Both the position numbers and the translations under genes were made by a program. 64,000 nucleotides of DNA from Neodothiora populina. Its lineage: Eukaryota. The stretch covers positions 310,001 to 374,000 of the forward strand of contig NW_027191419.1 of NCBI RefSeq assembly GCF_041146345.1, in the 5' to 3' direction. Shown piece after piece: positions 645 through 18,711 of the stretch (its first letter is position 1; the number at the start of each line of letters is the position of its first letter). The notes beneath the pieces are model-generated. The model ran no database searches. It saw only the letters and a list, made by a program, of their open reading frames with translations, and was not told where the DNA came from.

Positions 645-3455
645 ATGGGTCCGCGAAACAAGAAGCACAAGCCAAACCACCCGGCATCAGCAGGTCAAGA
701 CCATGATCAAGTCCAATCACATGAGAACGCCGTCGCTGCCCCGCCCGCCAAGCCAGAAGAAGATGCGGCTCCGGATGATGACACTCAGTCCCAAAAGCCA
801 GAGCGACGGTCCAGCAGGGCGAGTTGGTATAACAAATCAGGTTCATGGCGTGCCAAAGCATCTCCCGTAGCCCAAGCGACGCGCGAGAGCATCTCGGTTG
901 CCGGTGGAGCGACTTCAGAGGCTCTGGCTGAAGGATCCGCCCAGGTCGCCAGATACATGCACAACACGCTCAAACGCAGCAGCAAATCCATCCCGAGTCT
1001 GCCTTCTGAGTCAAGGGTCAACGTGACAGGCATTCCTTCGGATCTCGACAGACCCAGATCCAGAGAAGCCAAAGAGGAGACCAAGGAGATAAAGGAGGAC
1101 GACGTGCCGGATATGAAGGTCAGAGAGGGAGGAACGACGACAACGACCGAAGATGATTCTCGACCGCCAGACGACGCCCCTCTGCCGCCTGATCCCATCA
1201 AGGACACTGCATCACAACCCGACTCCACCCAGACTCAACTGACCTCTTCGCAAAGAGGCTGGTGGGGCTGGTGGTCAAGACCTGACGGATACAACACACA
1301 GCCCGAGAAGGCCGACGACAGCAACAAAAAGCCAGACCATCCCGACCAGAACGAGACCAGCAACACTCCATTACCCACATCGCCTGCTCAGGAAAATCCC
1401 CCTGCAGAAGAAAACGCCGCCACTCCAGCCCTCCCTATTGCCGACCCGCCCAATGCACCCGTCGTAGCAGCCAACAAAGACTTAGGCTATGGCTCAACCA
1501 GATCGTGGTTTGGTCTCTGGAGTAAAGCGCAAAACACACAGCAGAGGCACGATGAATCGTCTACTCTCCCACAACCCTCACCACCAGAGAACACTGTCTC
1601 TCCGGAGCCCACGCCGCCACAAGCAGTCGAGAGTACGATCCCAGGAACGCATGAGCCAGAGCACCCTGCTCCCTCGCCACCCACAAAGTCGGCAGCAGGA
1701 TGGGCCTTTTGGTCAAGAGAGCAAAAGCCAGGGAACAGTTCGACGCCGAACGGCACTCAGACACAGCGACAGATTGGAGAGTTGGCCGTAGCAGACACTC
1801 CCTCACAGTCTCATCCCGAGGCTGCCCAGTTCAATCAAGAGCGCGAACAGAAATCAAAGGCCAAACGCATCGCCCGCTCCGCTTCTCTCAAGACTCCCAA
1901 GAACGCCACATTTTCTGCCAGCCCAAACATTGCTTCAGCTCCTGATACGCCGACGACGGCCAGCCCAGCCCAGACCCGCGCCAACACTCCGGAGCCTGGC
2001 ACTGGCAAGACGAACGATGCCTCCAAGAGCACCTCCGCTGTCAAGGCCACGAAACCTTCAGATCGACCGGCCAATATGGTATTGCCCGCGTTCCGCGATA
2101 CCTATACCATGGCTCAAGTTCCCTCATATTGGGAACGCGCGACACAATATGTCGCCTCTTCGCTAAGAATCATAGACGCTCCTGTCTCCAAGAACCACGT
2201 CGCCATCTCTCCGACCCTTCCCAAGATCAAGAACGCTGTTGCCATTGGCGTCCATGGCTACTTTCCTGCGCCGTTGATTCAGAAAGTGCTTGGTCCGCCC
2301 ACTGGTACATCCATCCGTTTCGCGAACCACGCCTCTGCTGCTATTCGAGCATGGGCCGAGAAGAACCAACCGGACATCGACTGCGAGATCGAGACTGTCG
2401 CTCTCGAAGGCGAAGGTTTTATCGCTGATCGTGTCAACACCCTCTGGAAGCTTCTCCTGAATTGGCTATCGCACTTGCGGACCGCAGACTTGATCTTTGT
2501 TGCATGCCACAGTCAAGGTGTGCCCGTCGCCGTCATGCTCGTCAGTAAGCTCATACAGCTGGGCTGCCTGAGCCCGCATGCCAAGATCAGCATCTGTGCC
2601 ATGGCAGGAGTGAATCTGGGTCCATTCGCTGATTACAAGAGCCGCTTGCTAGGCGCAGGCTCCGCCGCCGAGCTTTTCGACTTCAGCCGACCTGCAAGCA
2701 AGGTCAGCATGGAATATGCAACGGCGCTGGATGTGGTCCTGCGTCATAACGTGCGCATCACTTACGCAGGAAGCATCGACGACCAGCTCGTGTCTCTCGA
2801 GTCTTCTACCTTTAGCACTCTCACCCACCCATATGTCTACCGCTGCGTTTTCGTGGATGGACGCGTGCACGCACCTGACTTCATCACTCATCTCGTCGCT
2901 TTTGCGCTGAAGCTCCGCAACCTAGGCATCTCCGATCACGGTCTGATCCGCGAGCTCTCGCTGCCGCTAGCAGGCTCACTCTATGGCGGACAAGGCCACA
3001 GCACCGTCTACGATGATCCGGCAGTCTACGACCTCGCCCTCGAGTTTTGTCTCGAAACCACCGACGTCGTCCCTGGAAACAGCAACAACACCATGACGGA
3101 ATCCGAACAGCAAGCTAGGCATGAAGCCGCTCTGCGCCGCAGCAGCCGTGGTGGACCTCCTTCTTCAATCGATGCCGCCAACGCCCTGCGCAGGGGCAGC
3201 ATTTCTAATTCGTCACTAGCCACGACCGGCATTCCTCCCGTGCTCGCACCGTTCGAGTTACCAGCCAGCGGCAGCAACGCAAACCCGTACTTTCTGCCCT
3301 GGGCTCTGCGAGGAATACTGGAAGAGGATGTGGTGAAGAAGGACATGGGCGACGAAGTGCGCGAGATCGTCGGCGAGTTCGAAGAGTGGCGACCTGTGAG
3401 TAAGGTGTTGAAGGACGTCCGCTTCAGACTGGAGGGGGTGAGGAGTAAATTGTGA
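645..3455 (+). CDS. YML020W-like conserved fungal protein; disordered N-terminus, C-terminal alpha/beta-hydrolase-like domain
   Basis: Single 936-aa ORF; motifs AIGVHGYFP, GPPTGTSIRFA, ACHSQG, GSIDDQLV, NPYFLPWALRG recognised as the yeast YML020W family. Confidence 0.8.
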   Translation: MGPRNKKHKPNHPASAGQDHDQVQSHENAVAAPPAKPEEDAAPDDDTQSQKPERRSSRASWYNKSGSWRAKASPVAQATRESISVAGGATSEALAEGSAQVARYMHNTLKRSSKSIPSLPSESRVNVTGIPSDLDRPRSREAKEETKEIKEDDVPDMKVREGGTTTTTEDDSRPPDDAPLPPDPIKDTASQPDSTQTQLTSSQRGWWGWWSRPDGYNTQPEKADDSNKKPDHPDQNETSNTPLPTSPAQENPPAEENAATPALPIADPPNAPVVAANKDLGYGSTRSWFGLWSKAQNTQQRHDESSTLPQPSPPENTVSPEPTPPQAVESTIPGTHEPEHPAPSPPTKSAAGWAFWSREQKPGNSSTPNGTQTQRQIGELAVADTPSQSHPEAAQFNQEREQKSKAKRIARSASLKTPKNATFSASPNIASAPDTPTTASPAQTRANTPEPGTGKTNDASKSTSAVKATKPSDRPANMVLPAFRDTYTMAQVPSYWERATQYVASSLRIIDAPVSKNHVAISPTLPKIKNAVAIGVHGYFPAPLIQKVLGPPTGTSIRFANHASAAIRAWAEKNQPDIDCEIETVALEGEGFIADRVNTLWKLLLNWLSHLRTADLIFVACHSQGVPVAVMLVSKLIQLGCLSPHAKISICAMAGVNLGPFADYKSRLLGAGSAAELFDFSRPASKVSMEYATALDVVLRHNVRITYAGSIDDQLVSLESSTFSTLTHPYVYRCVFVDGRVHAPDFITHLVAFALKLRNLGISDHGLIRELSLPLAGSLYGGQGHSTVYDDPAVYDLALEFCLETTDVVPGNSNNTMTESEQQARHEAALRRSSRGGPPSSIDAANALRRGSISNSSLATTGIPPVLAPFELPASGSNANPYFLPWALRGILEEDVVKKDMGDEVREIVGEFEEWRPVSKVLKDVRFRLEGVRSKL

Positions 3456-16733: not shown

Positions 16734-18195
16734 TTATAGCCCTTCCTTTGCGAGCATGTCTGTTGATCTTTAGCTGCAGCGCGCAAAGTGTACGATACGA
16801 TCGCCTTACCTGCAATGTCCAAGTAGAATGCAACAGCATTAAATCTAAGCGACCGTTAGTGGTATACAACAGCATCGCAGGATTGACAAGCACCTACGTT
16901 CGCTTGTTTCCCTGTGCCTCCCAAAACCACCACCTGAGTCGGTTGGTCCTGCAGCGCGTCGTATTAGTATAGTACAAGGGCAAGATGCTACAGTATTATT
17001 ACCAGTTAATCATGTCAAGGTGACTGACGTCCTTCAAAGTTCCTTTGTATGTCCCCCATCGGCTGCTTGCAACGCTGACCAAGCCATCGTTATCTCCTTC
17101 GACTCGTTGGATGATCCGGTGAGATTGTCTGAACATAGACCAGAATCTCGGATTACAAGATGCGCCGTAAGAATAATATTGGACTCCTGGCTCGTCGAGT
17201 ATCTTGGGATTGAATTCTTCTTTCATATACTTCTGTGTCAGCTGACTGAAAGCTCCGGTTTCGAACCCGACGAAGTCGAGCATTTTGTATAACTTTGGTA
17301 TATTAGTCGCTACAGCTGTTAGCGATTTAGTAAAGTAAAGTGAGATCTGGAGCCTCACGTCCGATCCAGGCGAACATGTAATCCGCGAAAGCCGATCCTG
17401 CACAAAGGTAAGTATATGCCATTGGGCACATGTAAGATATAAATGTTACCTCTGTGAGGAGTGGCAATCGAAGTCAGTGACAACACTTTGACGTTCGAGG
17501 TCTTTAGTTGAGAGATCATGTAGCGTGAGTCAAGGCCCCTCCACGACTGATTAGTTGCTTTTCGTAGGATGGACACGTAGAATGATTACCCCTAATCGAC
17601 CTTAATAAGTACACTTGGATCGATACGGAGTTGTCATACCATGCTATGCCTGCAGAGATGAATGTCAGTACCTACCTATATAGTCTTATGACTTTGGTAG
17701 ACTTACGCTATGATATTGACGCTTTTACCTTGAGCCTTTGACTCAATATCCTCTGCTAGTTTAGCGGCCCTAGCCTCTATCGAGCCAGAAGGCGGAACTG
17801 TGGCAGTAATGACCTCGATATTCTTAGCGGCAAGTGCCTCGGTGATGCCTCTCCAATAGTGAATACCACCCATGAGTTGTTTGGGCACAACGTTGAATTC
17901 ATCAAATCCCAGTAGCCCGTGGGCAAGTATTACGGGGTTCTTCGGTGTTTCTGAAATGTCAGAGCACATCATTCAGACAGTAAATAGAAGGCTCACGATA
18001 GTCATCTCGAATGACTGCGAATTGATCGCTGATTACATCACTATCCGATATGTCTTCGATTCTTGGATCGGATGCTTGGGCTTGCCTGGCGAAAGCATTG
18101 TGCAGACGTGAAACCCGGATATCTGAGCAATGTACTCGATACGGAAGGACTTTTCGACAGGCAAGACCACGCCGCACAATCCCGTTCGAGCTCAT
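16734..18195 (-). CDS. TGL2: Triacylglycerol lipase, TGL2-like (alpha/beta hydrolase)
   Basis: Multi-exon; PVILAHGLLGF, HYWRGI, IIAHSMGGLDSRY (via micro-exons), IATPHRGS, NDGLVSV, HLDMINW, FYLDIADMLAKEGL*. Confidence 0.9.
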
Positions 18196-18711
18196 GAGCG
18201 AATGGCGAAGAGGAGACAACTCAAACGAGGGAACCAGCCACGGACACTCTGCAAGTGATCAATTTGGAAACAACGATAGATCGCAGTGGTCGTTAAGAAT
18301 AACACACTCTTGGTAGGGTGGATTGGAGGATAGGTCACGGTTCGGTACCTTGATATCCATACCATGAGCCAAAACAATATAACGGTGACGTCAGGCTTCG
18401 AGCGTGCCTGAGGTACCTGGGTAAGAGTATCACTGCAATTGGGATTTGAGTGTACCGAAAAGATATGAGGCATGTGAAAGATGGATTTGGTTGGATTGTT
18501 GCATACAAGGCACTTGGATGAGCAAGGCTTAATGATGAGCTATTGTCTGGTTGGAGGTGTACCTGATCATCTACACACCGTCCTTCGTCAAAAAGAGCTC
18601 GGGGTCAGTGATTTCGGACAAGATAGCAAGCAGGAGATGTATGCTAGGGATATCTACATTTACTAGGAAGAGAAGAAGGGATCATCGTGTGAAGCAGCAA
18701 AAGCCTCGTCC

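What the first reader, a model, noticed from the sequence alone, without database searches (positions are those of the whole stretch)
17538..17706. Lipase catalytic motif assembled through a 10-nt and a 2-nt micro-exon
Seen: on the minus strand the sequence reads IIA|intron 17706-17650|GCATAGCATG (17649-17640)|GTATGA..TTAG (17639-17592)|GG (17591-17590)|GTAATC..ACTAAT..GAG (17589-17539)|G GGC CTT GAC. Among the routes I tried, only this one gives A-H-S-M-G-G-L-D. Known: G/A-x-S-x-G is the lipase nucleophile elbow. Inference: a 2-nt exon and a rare GAG acceptor sit at the active site, so ordered splicing would be required. Skipping the GG exon frameshifts the mRNA. Using the nearer CAG instead gives an in-frame HSM-SWR-GLD product that is probably inactive, a possible splice-controlled switch.
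Basis: partly seen in the sequence, partly recalled or inferred. Interest (0 to 1): 0.75.

Follow-up and report, generated by a model that had tools for sequence, protein, structure and literature searches.

The report
Two-base exon inside lipase active site
A fungal lipase gene encodes its catalytic serine motif across three tiny introns that leave exons of only ten and two bases, a layout shared by many related fungi and often missed by gene-prediction software.

Summary
On the minus strand, 18195-16734 is an intact 10-exon gene for a Tgl2/'lipase 2'-type alpha/beta hydrolase. An exhaustive search found 198 stop-free splice routes. Only one gives IIA-HSMGG-LD: introns 17706-17650, 17639-17592 and 17589-17539, leaving a 10-nt and a 2-nt (GG) exon.

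This is not a quirk of this assembly. Of 75 related metagenome loci that could be anchored, 44 have the same three-intron layout, each with a single productive route. The other 31 have no intron here, and none is intermediate. One intron-free contig (L044) matches a split genomic locus (L073) with 6 mismatches in 1557 nt once 10 introns are removed. It reads straight through both micro-exons, so the joins are real in a relative.

No RNA from this organism could be examined. Its GAG acceptor is unique (1 of 36 distinct loci), so its use is inferred. The proposed SWR 'splice switch' gets no support from conservation.

Exons of 1-2 nt are already documented in fungi (Fusarium CYP621A, Coprinopsis). 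This is therefore a new, deeply conserved member of a known kind. Its practical consequence is that many public gene models of this lipase lack the catalytic serine.

The parts
16734..18195 (-). Coding region of a Tgl2/'lipase 2'-type alpha/beta-hydrolase gene. It has 10 exons and 9 introns of 46-57 nt, with a CDS of 1002 nt (333 aa).
   Evidence: no internal stop; collinear with P0002 (251 of 332 residues identical, no gaps). HSMGG lies at residue 149, NDGLVS at 268 and SHLD at 290.
17997..18195 (-). Exon 1 (start codon at 18195)
17707..17950 (-). Exon 2, ending ...GKSVNII + GC (the first two bases of the Ala codon)
   Evidence: It is 80-81% identical to the Dothideomycete proteins P0001-P0004.
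17650..17706 (-). Intron (57 nt), GTAAGT..CAG, phase 2. The CTGAC branch motif is at 17668-17664, 15 nt before the 3' end.
   Evidence: An intron sits at this position in all 36 distinct split loci.
17640..17649 (-). 10-nt micro-exon GCATAGCATG. It supplies the last base of Ala plus His-Ser-Met, and the Ser is the nucleophile.
   Evidence: It is conserved as NCAYAGYATG in every split locus.
17592..17639 (-). Intron (48 nt), GTATGA..TAG, phase 0. The likely branch motif CTTAT is at 17609-17605, 14 nt before the 3' end.
   Evidence: CTTAC-type motifs also occur in relatives and in this gene's intron 17449-17398.
17590..17591 (-). 2-nt micro-exon GG, the first two bases of the first Gly of HSMGG
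   Evidence: The equivalent GG in L073 (2846-2847) is present in the intron-free contig L044.
17539..17589 (-). Intron (51 nt), GTAATC..GAG, phase 2. The CTAAT branch motif is at 17554-17550. A proximal CAG lies at 17549-17547 (4 nt after the branch A). The productive GAG acceptor is at 17541-17539 (12 nt after it).
   Evidence: GAG occurs in 1 of 36 distinct loci; the others have CAG (26), TAG (5) or AAG (4).
17450..17538 (-). Exon 5: (G)GGC CTT GAC..., encoding G-LDSRYMISQLKTSNVKVLSLTSIATPHR-G
17003..17309 (-). Exon 7, carrying the other two triad residues (Asp of NDGLVS, His of SHLD)
   Evidence: These residues align with NDGLVS and NHLDEIN of solved Burkholderia lipases through the orthologue P0002.

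Best explanation
The window carries an intact, selected gene for a Tgl2-like lipase. Its nucleophile elbow (Ala-His-Ser-Met-Gly-Gly) is interrupted by three ordinary short U2-type introns packed side by side. Constitutive removal of all three joins exon 2, a 10-nt exon, a 2-nt exon (GG) and exon 5 into ...IIAHSMGGLD....

Each intron has its own donor, branch motif and acceptor, so each can be recognised by intron definition.

Shown: the architecture itself, its conservation, and its correct splicing in one relative.

Inferred:
- That this organism uses the same joins, including the unusual GAG acceptor.
- That GAG is chosen because the only nearer AG (CAG) lies 4 nt after the branch point.
- That the two spliceosomes flanking GG cannot sit on the RNA together and therefore act one after the other. 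The most likely order is 5' to 3' as the RNA is made, which also stops the upstream donor from pairing with the downstream acceptor and skipping GG.

The cluster is old and was repeatedly lost as a block, leaving no intron.
For: - **Unique route.** 1 of 198 stop-free routes gives AHSMGGLD.
- **Intact gene.** The full model has 333 aa and no stop. It is collinear with P0002 (251 of 332 identical, no gaps), and all nine introns are 46-57 nt.
- **Purifying selection.** Against L002, differences by codon position are 17/5/62, and 52 differing codons are synonymous against 14 non-synonymous over 104 codons. The three introns match in only 32-36 of 52-60 aligned columns.
- **Conservation.** One search kept 80 loci, of which 75 could be anchored. 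Of those, 44 show GC | intron | NCAYAGYATG | intron | GG | intron | NGGN with exactly one productive route each, and 31 have no intron here. None is intermediate. Of the 5 loci that could not be anchored, L074 and L034 show the whole structure by eye, L006 shows it as far as GG|GT, L032 as far as the 10-nt exon, and L007 ends too early.
- **Splice signals.** Intron sequences differ freely between loci, but GT, a branch motif 7-21 nt upstream of the acceptor, and AG are kept.
- **Spliced product in a relative.** L044 (1557 nt) aligns end to end with genomic L073 after removal of 10 GT-AG introns, with 6 mismatches. These include introns of 53, 49 and 48 nt around a 10-nt and a 2-nt exon.
- **Skipping of a branch-proximal AG.** In L073 the acceptor used is a CAG that lies 6 nt beyond a TAG. 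An AG between the branch motif and the used acceptor occurs in 6 of the 29 intron-3 sequences that have a recognisable motif.
- **Lipase identity.** P0002 matches solved Burkholderia and Pseudomonas lipases at E 1e-15 to 1e-20, with the elbow, NDGLVS and HLD aligned. The same three positions form the Ser-Asp-His triad of yeast Tgl2, modelled on LipA 1EX9 (PMC11889585, passages read).
Against: - No RNA from this organism was seen (one search listed no run), and no whole genome is held. Splicing in this species is therefore inferred.
- The GAG acceptor is unique among 36 distinct loci, and GAG is the least favoured acceptor (general knowledge).
- The branch motif of the middle intron is non-consensus (CTTAT).
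- An in-frame alternative (SWR insertion) exists formally.
- That L044 is RNA-derived is inferred. It lacks all 10 introns and is collinear with the transcribed region. I did not look up the sample type.
- The evidence comes from a single transcript/genome pair.
Confidence: 0.85

Rival explanations
1. Splice-controlled switch. The organism alternates between the active HSMGG message and an inactive, in-frame HSM-SWR-GLD message. It makes the latter by skipping GG and using the nearer CAG.
For: The route 17706-17650 plus 17639-17547 is in frame and stop-free. The GAG acceptor is weak, which could let another acceptor compete.
Against: In-frame GG-skipping routes exist in 14 of 36 distinct loci, about the chance level, and the inserted peptides are unrelated. 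The CAG lies 4 nt after the branch A, whereas acceptors in use lie at least 7 nt away in nearly all loci. The one transcript-like contig shows full inclusion. No RNA evidence is available.
Confidence: 0.05
2. The window's copy is impaired. Either the gene is decaying and poorly spliced (GAG acceptor, CTTAT branch motif), or the assembly has a small error at this site.
For: GAG occurs in 1 of 36 loci. The branch motif of the middle intron is non-consensus. There is no transcript evidence.
Against: The rest of the gene is intact and collinear with orthologues. Substitutions against L002 are mostly synonymous. The GG exon and its flanking AG and GT are as in all relatives. Another intron of the same gene has a CTTAC-type motif. 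An indel that repaired the frame with a single intron would depart from the layout found in every split relative.
Confidence: 0.07
3. Both micro-exons are normally skipped, so the main product is the Ser-less protein IIA-GLD, as many public gene models predict.
For: The exons total 10 + 2 = 12 nt, so joint skipping is in frame in every locus. 11 of 120 listed database proteins read A-GLD or G-GLD.
Against: The 10-nt exon is conserved so that it encodes His-Ser-Met in every split locus. All 31 intron-free versions encode [AG]HSMGG. L044 includes both exons. The A-GLD models can be explained by gene-prediction software missing tiny exons.
Confidence: 0.02
4. The second and third introns form a nested 'stwintron', in which one intron interrupts a splice signal of the other, rather than two introns around an exon.
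For: The two introns are adjacent, and stwintrons are known in Pezizomycotina lipase-like genes (lipS; PMC5639578, passages read).
Against: Both introns have complete donor, branch and acceptor signals of their own, and the GG stays in the message. lipS belongs to a different family (PF07859).
Confidence: 0.01

Closest known systems
One-nucleotide exon in Fusarium CYP621A P450 genes (Nelson & Syed 2026, PMC12940212; whole main text except the last part read)
   Same: An ultra-short exon made of G lies between AG and GT inside a conserved motif of a fungal enzyme. It is needed to keep the frame, is conserved among orthologues and is missed by automatic gene models. An intron-free relative and transcript reads served as the ruler.
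   Different: Here the exon is 2 nt and sits beside a second micro-exon of 10 nt, so three introns lie within six codons. It is at the catalytic nucleophile. It is spread over several classes rather than one genus. Transcript evidence here comes from one relative only.
Exons of 3 nt or less in the long-read annotation of Coprinopsis cinerea (PMC12230235; passages read)
   Same: That paper reports 57 exons of 2 nt in 50 genes, 13 of 1 nt and 27 of 3 nt. This shows that fungal spliceosomes handle 2-nt exons.
   Different: That is a basidiomycete genome-wide tally, with no analysis of conservation or active-site location in the passages I read. The present case is an ascomycete gene followed across many taxa.
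Stwintrons, e.g. the [D1,2] stwintron of lipS in Aspergillus (PMC5639578; passages read)
   Same: Two adjacent short U2 introns are removed in consecutive reactions. They are ancient in Leotiomyceta and are lost as a block, leaving no intron.
   Different: In a stwintron the inner intron splits a splice signal and no exon lies between the two introns. Here both introns are complete and 2 nt remain in the mRNA. The gene family also differs.
Yeast Tgl2 and bacterial family I lipases (P. aeruginosa LipA 1EX9, Burkholderia 1YS1/1HQD)
   Same: Both have an alpha/beta hydrolase fold with an (A/G)HSxGG elbow and a Ser-Asp-His triad. The Asp-to-His spacing of 22 residues matches (Tgl2 D259/H281; window positions 269/291 derived). 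PDB hits score E 1e-15 to 1e-20.
   Different: I did not align the protein directly with yeast Tgl2. The name 'lipase 2' comes from database records. Enzyme activity is untested.

Membership tests
Ultra-short (3 nt or less) spliceosomal micro-exon | An AG directly before the exon and a GT directly after it | tested here: met
   Window: TTAG|GG|GTAATC. The same holds in all 36 distinct split loci.
Ultra-short (3 nt or less) spliceosomal micro-exon | Each flanking intron is complete in itself, with a branch motif and a typical length | tested here: met
   Window introns are 48 and 51 nt, with CTTAT and CTAAT motifs 14 and 12 nt before the 3' end. A CT[AGT]A[CT] motif is found in 33 of 36 sequences for the middle intron and 29 of 36 for the third.
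Ultra-short (3 nt or less) spliceosomal micro-exon | The exon is needed to keep the reading frame and the conserved protein sequence | tested here: met
   It is the only route to AHSMGGLD. Omitting it gives a stop three codons on. The intron-free homologues encode the same six residues.
Ultra-short (3 nt or less) spliceosomal micro-exon | The exon is present in mature RNA | tested here: inconclusive
   Met in a relative: L044 against L073. Not testable for this organism, because no RNA run was listed.
Stwintron (spliceosomal twin intron) | An internal intron interrupts the donor, branch point or acceptor of an external intron, and no exon bases lie between them | tested here: not met
   Both introns have intact signals, and GG is retained in L044.
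Tgl2 / bacterial family I-type triacylglycerol lipase | An (A/G)-x-S-x-G nucleophile elbow aligned with that of solved lipases | tested here: met
   In the orthologue P0002, HSMGGLDSRY aligns with HSQGGLTSRY of 1ys1 and 7cof at E about 1e-20. The window protein is 76% identical to P0002.
Tgl2 / bacterial family I-type triacylglycerol lipase | Asp and His of the catalytic triad are present | tested here: met
   NDGLVS and SHLD are present in the window protein and align with NDGLVS and NHLDEIN in the solved lipases. That these are the triad residues follows the Tgl2/LipA assignment in PMC11889585.
Tgl2 / bacterial family I-type triacylglycerol lipase | Lipolytic activity and mitochondrial location | not testable with these tools
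Pfam gives only weak general alpha/beta-hydrolase matches (DUF676, Abhydrolase_1, Lip_C).

The most novel reading that the evidence does not exclude
The three-intron cluster may be more than a tolerated relic. Its two micro-exons always sum to 12 nt, so joint skipping gives an in-frame protein that lacks exactly His-Ser-Met-Gly. Fungi that keep the cluster might use regulated skipping, or the weak GAG acceptor in this species, to make a catalytically dead form of a lipase. The yeast counterpart of this lipase forms dimers and larger complexes, so a dead form could act within such complexes. This would explain why the cluster has been kept across several classes while the other lineages lost it as a whole.
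Probability: 0.06. Interest if true: 0.75.

Novelty: new member of a known kind. Interest (0 to 1): 0.5.

Why it matters
This adds a deeply conserved 2-nt exon, next to a 10-nt exon, at the catalytic serine of a conserved fungal lipase. It is a natural test case for how two spliceosomes deal with splice sites 2 nt apart, and for whether branch-proximal AGs are skipped.

It also has a practical consequence. Of the 120 best database relatives, only 40 carry an intact elbow. Another 11 have it deleted and 12 have wrong joins after or around AHSM. Named genome annotations of Aureobasidium, Elasticomyces, Venturia, Elsinoe, Plenodomus and others therefore describe this enzyme without its nucleophile. 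Anyone inferring lipase repertoires or pseudoenzymes from these models would be misled.

Tried and rejected
- **RNA evidence.** The look-up of sequencing runs on 16800-18250 listed no RNA holder (none was listed, which is not the same as none existing). Read laying could therefore not be used.
- **Own genome.** Not held, so I could not survey GAG-acceptor use or paralogues genome-wide.
- **Pfam on single exon translations.** No hits. Full-length orthologues had to be used instead.
- **Literature.** The searches were micro-exon/fungi/intron/lipase, stwintron, six phrasings of '2-nt exon', six more and smallest exon/fungal/micro-exon/Aspergillus. None returned a paper on micro-exons in this lipase. 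The 'lipase' stwintron paper concerns another family. Supplements of the papers were not opened.
- **Earlier-findings look-ups.** By place, by several words and by sequence gave nothing.
- **Ungapped codon comparison.** The comparison with L001 and L002 was thrown off by an indel, so I redid it with an alignment. Only the L012 and L018 rows and the intron identities are usable.
- **Anchor pattern.** It missed 5 of 80 loci. I read these by eye instead.
- **Tree.** It was built on 107 columns from 70 rows. I left out L004, L058, L073, L078, L076 and L079 as too short or because they ran into an upstream intron. It needs at least 5 changes of the split/intron-free label, 2 of which are the transcript-like L044 and L061. 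Only 5 of 42 inner branches are well supported, so it cannot count losses.
- **Stwintron and recursive-splicing readings.** Considered and rejected (see rival explanations).

Full report
**What is there.** On the minus strand, the window carries a fungal gene from the ATG at 18195 to the stop at 16734. I assembled it by hand from the sequence. It has 10 exons and 9 introns of 46-57 nt. Its 1002-nt CDS gives 333 residues with no internal stop. The product is collinear with the database protein P0002 (332 aa, 251 identical, no gaps). The best relatives of exon 2 are Dothideomycete proteins, 80-81% identical, from Aureobasidium and an unnamed Dothideomycete. Their sources call them 'alpha/beta-hydrolase', 'lipase 2' or 'triacylglycerol lipase'.

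**The observation.**
- Exon 2 ends ...ATC ATA GC at 17707.
- A 57-nt intron follows (17706-17650, GTAAGT..CAG).
- The 10-nt exon GCATAGCATG is at 17649-17640.
- A 48-nt intron follows (17639-17592, GTATGA..TAG).
- The 2-nt exon GG is at 17591-17590.
- A 51-nt intron follows (17589-17539, GTAATC..GAG).
- The next exon begins GGGC CTT GAC at 17538.

Joined, these give ...GKSVNIIAHSMGGLDSRYMISQLK....

I then enumerated every combination of one to three GT/GC-AG introns of 40-250 nt in 17730-17520. There are 25 donors, 16 acceptors and 109 candidate introns. Of the combinations, 198 are stop-free and rejoin the downstream frame. Removing 17639-17539 as one intron gives ATG GGG CCT TGA, a stop. Removing 17639-17547 gives an in-frame IIAHSM-SWR-GLD.

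**It is a lipase elbow.** Single exons were too short for Pfam. The full-length orthologues P0002 and P0004 give only weak general alpha/beta-hydrolase matches (DUF676, Abhydrolase_1, Lip_C, PGAP1). Against solved structures, P0002 matches Burkholderia and Pseudomonas lipases (7cof, 1ys1, 1hqd, 1cvl, 1tah, 1ex9) at E 1e-15 to 1e-20. In those alignments niiaHSMGGLDSRY lies over nlvgHSQGGLTSRY, NDGLVS over NDGLVS, and SHLDMIN over NHLDEIN. These are the positions given as the Ser-Asp-His triad for P. aeruginosa LipA (1EX9) and yeast Tgl2 (S144, D259, H281) in PMC11889585 (passages read). The window protein has the three motifs at residues 149, 268 and 290. I did not align it directly with yeast Tgl2.

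**The architecture is conserved.** A scan of metagenome contigs with an alignment of exon 2 found 318 confirmed relatives, of which the best 80 were kept. I anchored each locus on the end of exon 2 and on the LDxRY of the next exon, which worked for 75 loci. The distance between anchors fell into two classes only. It was 18 nt (no intron) in 31 loci and 166-215 nt in 44 loci. For each of the 44, I enumerated all routes that reduce the interval to 18 nt. Exactly one route per locus encodes [AG]HS-x-GG, and it is always the same: GC | intron | NCAYAGYATG | intron | GG | intron | NGGN. The 31 uninterrupted loci encode AHSMGG (29) or GHSMGG (2).

The five loci that could not be anchored were read by eye. 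L074 and L034 show the whole cluster, and L034 has a GC donor on the middle intron. L006 shows it as far as GG|GT before the contig ends, L032 as far as the 10-nt exon, and L007 ends 22 nt into the first intron.

Among the 36 distinct split sequences (window included), the intron sequences differ freely while the signals are kept. All donors are GT. First-intron acceptors are CAG (26) and TAG (10). Middle-intron acceptors are TAG (29) and CAG (7). Third-intron acceptors are CAG (26), TAG (5), AAG (4) and GAG (1). A CT[AGT]A[CT] branch-type motif occurs in 35, 33 and 29 of the 36 sequences respectively.

**The joins are made in a relative.** Locus L044 is a 1557-nt contig with an uninterrupted 331-codon frame. 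It matches the genomic loci L073 and L078 at 99.5-100% in blocks. An exact spliced alignment places all 1557 nt of L044 on L073 with 10 GT-AG introns removed and 6 mismatches. The removed introns include 2734-2786 (53 nt), 2797-2845 (49 nt) and 2848-2895 (48 nt). These lie around a 10-nt exon (2787-2796) and the 2-nt exon GG (2846-2847). L044 reads straight through...ATTGC ACATAGCATG GG GGGCCTCGAC.

L044 lacks every intron, including one beyond the stop codon, and it begins and ends inside the collinear region. I therefore take it to be derived from spliced RNA. I did not look up its sample type. Even a retro-copy would have come from that message. It is one pair, from a relative whose protein resembles Pleosporales models (RPTNFK signature), not from the window's organism.

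**Public gene models stumble here.** The 120 best database proteins break down as follows:

| How the elbow reads | Proteins |
|---|---|
| Intact [AG]HSMGGLD | 40 |
| A-GLD or G-GLD (elbow deleted) | 11 |
| AHSM followed by something else | 10 |
| Other wrong joins | 2 |
| Stop at the Ala codon | 23 |
| Run from Ala into intron read-through | 30 |
| No upstream anchor | 4 |

Many of the truncated ones are plain ORF calls on contigs. Named eukaryotic annotations are affected too:
- Aureobasidium pullulans, Elasticomyces, Venturia, Elsinoe, Polychaeton and Plenodomus tracheiphilus read A-GLD.
- A. melanogenum reads AHSMVCGLD.
- Neocucurbitaria reads AHSMARGLD.

Plenodomus biglobosus (AHSMGYLP...) and Peltula (AHSMGYHD...) read G-Y after AHSM. 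That is what GG followed by GTAC... gives if the third intron is read through. This is indirect evidence that the 2-nt exon exists in a named Pleosporales species and in a Lichinomycete. Models ending at the Ala codon also occur in Candelina and Sarea, but that shows only the first intron.

**Is the window's copy working?** The surrounding exons are under purifying selection. Against L002, 104 aligned codons differ at positions 1/2/3 in 17/5/62 cases, and 52 differing codons are synonymous against 14 non-synonymous. Against L012 the figures are 26/9/72. The three introns match L002 in only 32-36 of 52-60 aligned columns.

Two features of the window are weaker than in relatives. First, the third intron ends in GAG, unique among the 36. 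Second, the middle intron's best branch motif is CTTAT. Two observations soften these concerns. CTTAC-type motifs occur in relatives and in another intron of this very gene (17449-17398). In addition, GAG is the first AG at a workable distance, 12 nt after the branch A of ACTAAT, whereas the CAG is only 4 nt after it. L073 gives a transcript-backed precedent, because the acceptor used there is a CAG lying 6 nt beyond a TAG. No other acceptor restores the frame. I therefore infer that GAG is used, but no RNA from this organism could be examined.

**Mechanism (inferred).** Fungal introns of about 50 nt are recognised across the intron, and each of the three has its own signals. The acceptor of the middle intron and the donor of the third are 2 nt apart. 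Two spliceosomes can therefore hardly occupy them at once, and removal must be consecutive. Either order gives the same message, and the donor context (GGG|GT) is the same before and after removal of the middle intron. Removal in the order of transcription would also keep the middle intron's donor from pairing with the third intron's acceptor, which would drop GG and shift the frame. No partly spliced form was seen among the 80 loci, so the order remains open.

**The switch idea.** An in-frame GG-skipping route through an AG inside the third intron exists in 14 of 36 distinct loci. That is about what chance gives, and the inserted peptides are unrelated. One property is conserved by construction: 10 + 2 = 12 nt, so skipping both micro-exons is always in frame and deletes His-Ser-Met-Gly. 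Whether cells ever use this is unknown. I keep it as the most novel reading, at low probability.

**History.** A tree of 70 rows on 107 columns puts the window with L001 and L002 inside a clade in which every genomic locus is split. L044 and L061, which lack introns throughout, fall in that clade next to the split locus L060. Elsewhere split and intron-free loci are interleaved, but support is poor (5 of 42 inner branches well supported). With no intermediate state in 75 loci, the simplest reading is an old cluster lost as a block more than once. Some long genomic contigs carry entirely intron-free genes (L046 and others).

**Novelty.** Exons of 1-2 nt are in print for fungi. A 1-nt exon in Fusarium CYP621A has read support (PMC12940212). 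The long-read annotation of Coprinopsis cinerea reports 57 exons of 2 nt in 50 genes (PMC12230235). The earlier scan finding e1-7589194 pointed to that second paper. Five literature searches found nothing on micro-exons in this lipase. The stwintron 'lipase' lipS belongs to another family. This is therefore a new, widely conserved member of a known kind, not a new mechanism.

Noticed in passing
L073:2397-2500: In this relative the intron before exon 2 is itself two 48-nt introns around an 8-nt micro-exon (2445-2452). The intron-free contig L044 confirms this. The window has a single 46-nt intron there (17996-17951).
   Followed up: partly
L034:1054-1243: The middle intron of the cluster starts with GC (GCACGT) instead of GT. 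This is the only such donor seen among the loci read.
   Followed up: no
L046, L049, L050, L053, L055, L059 (about 2155-3295 in each): Orthologues on long genomic contigs (up to 1.6 Mb) have one uninterrupted frame of 330-380 codons, so all introns of this gene are gone in those lineages.
   Followed up: partly
Database proteins P0020, P0030, P0033, P0034, P0037, P0076, P0084, P0093, P0096, P0111, P0112: Public gene models of this lipase lack the catalytic His-Ser-Met-Gly. P0096 also carries the unrelated name 'T-complex protein 1 subunit gamma'.
   Followed up: partly
PDB chain 6z1p_BK against P0002 residues 119-294: A protein labelled mS79 in a solved structure matches this lipase family at E 4.7e-10, which suggests a lipase-like fold serving as a structural subunit.
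   Followed up: no
window 17398-17449 (minus strand): This intron of the same gene has a CTTAC-type motif rather than CTRAY before its acceptor. That fits a relaxed branch-site consensus in this organism.
   Followed up: no
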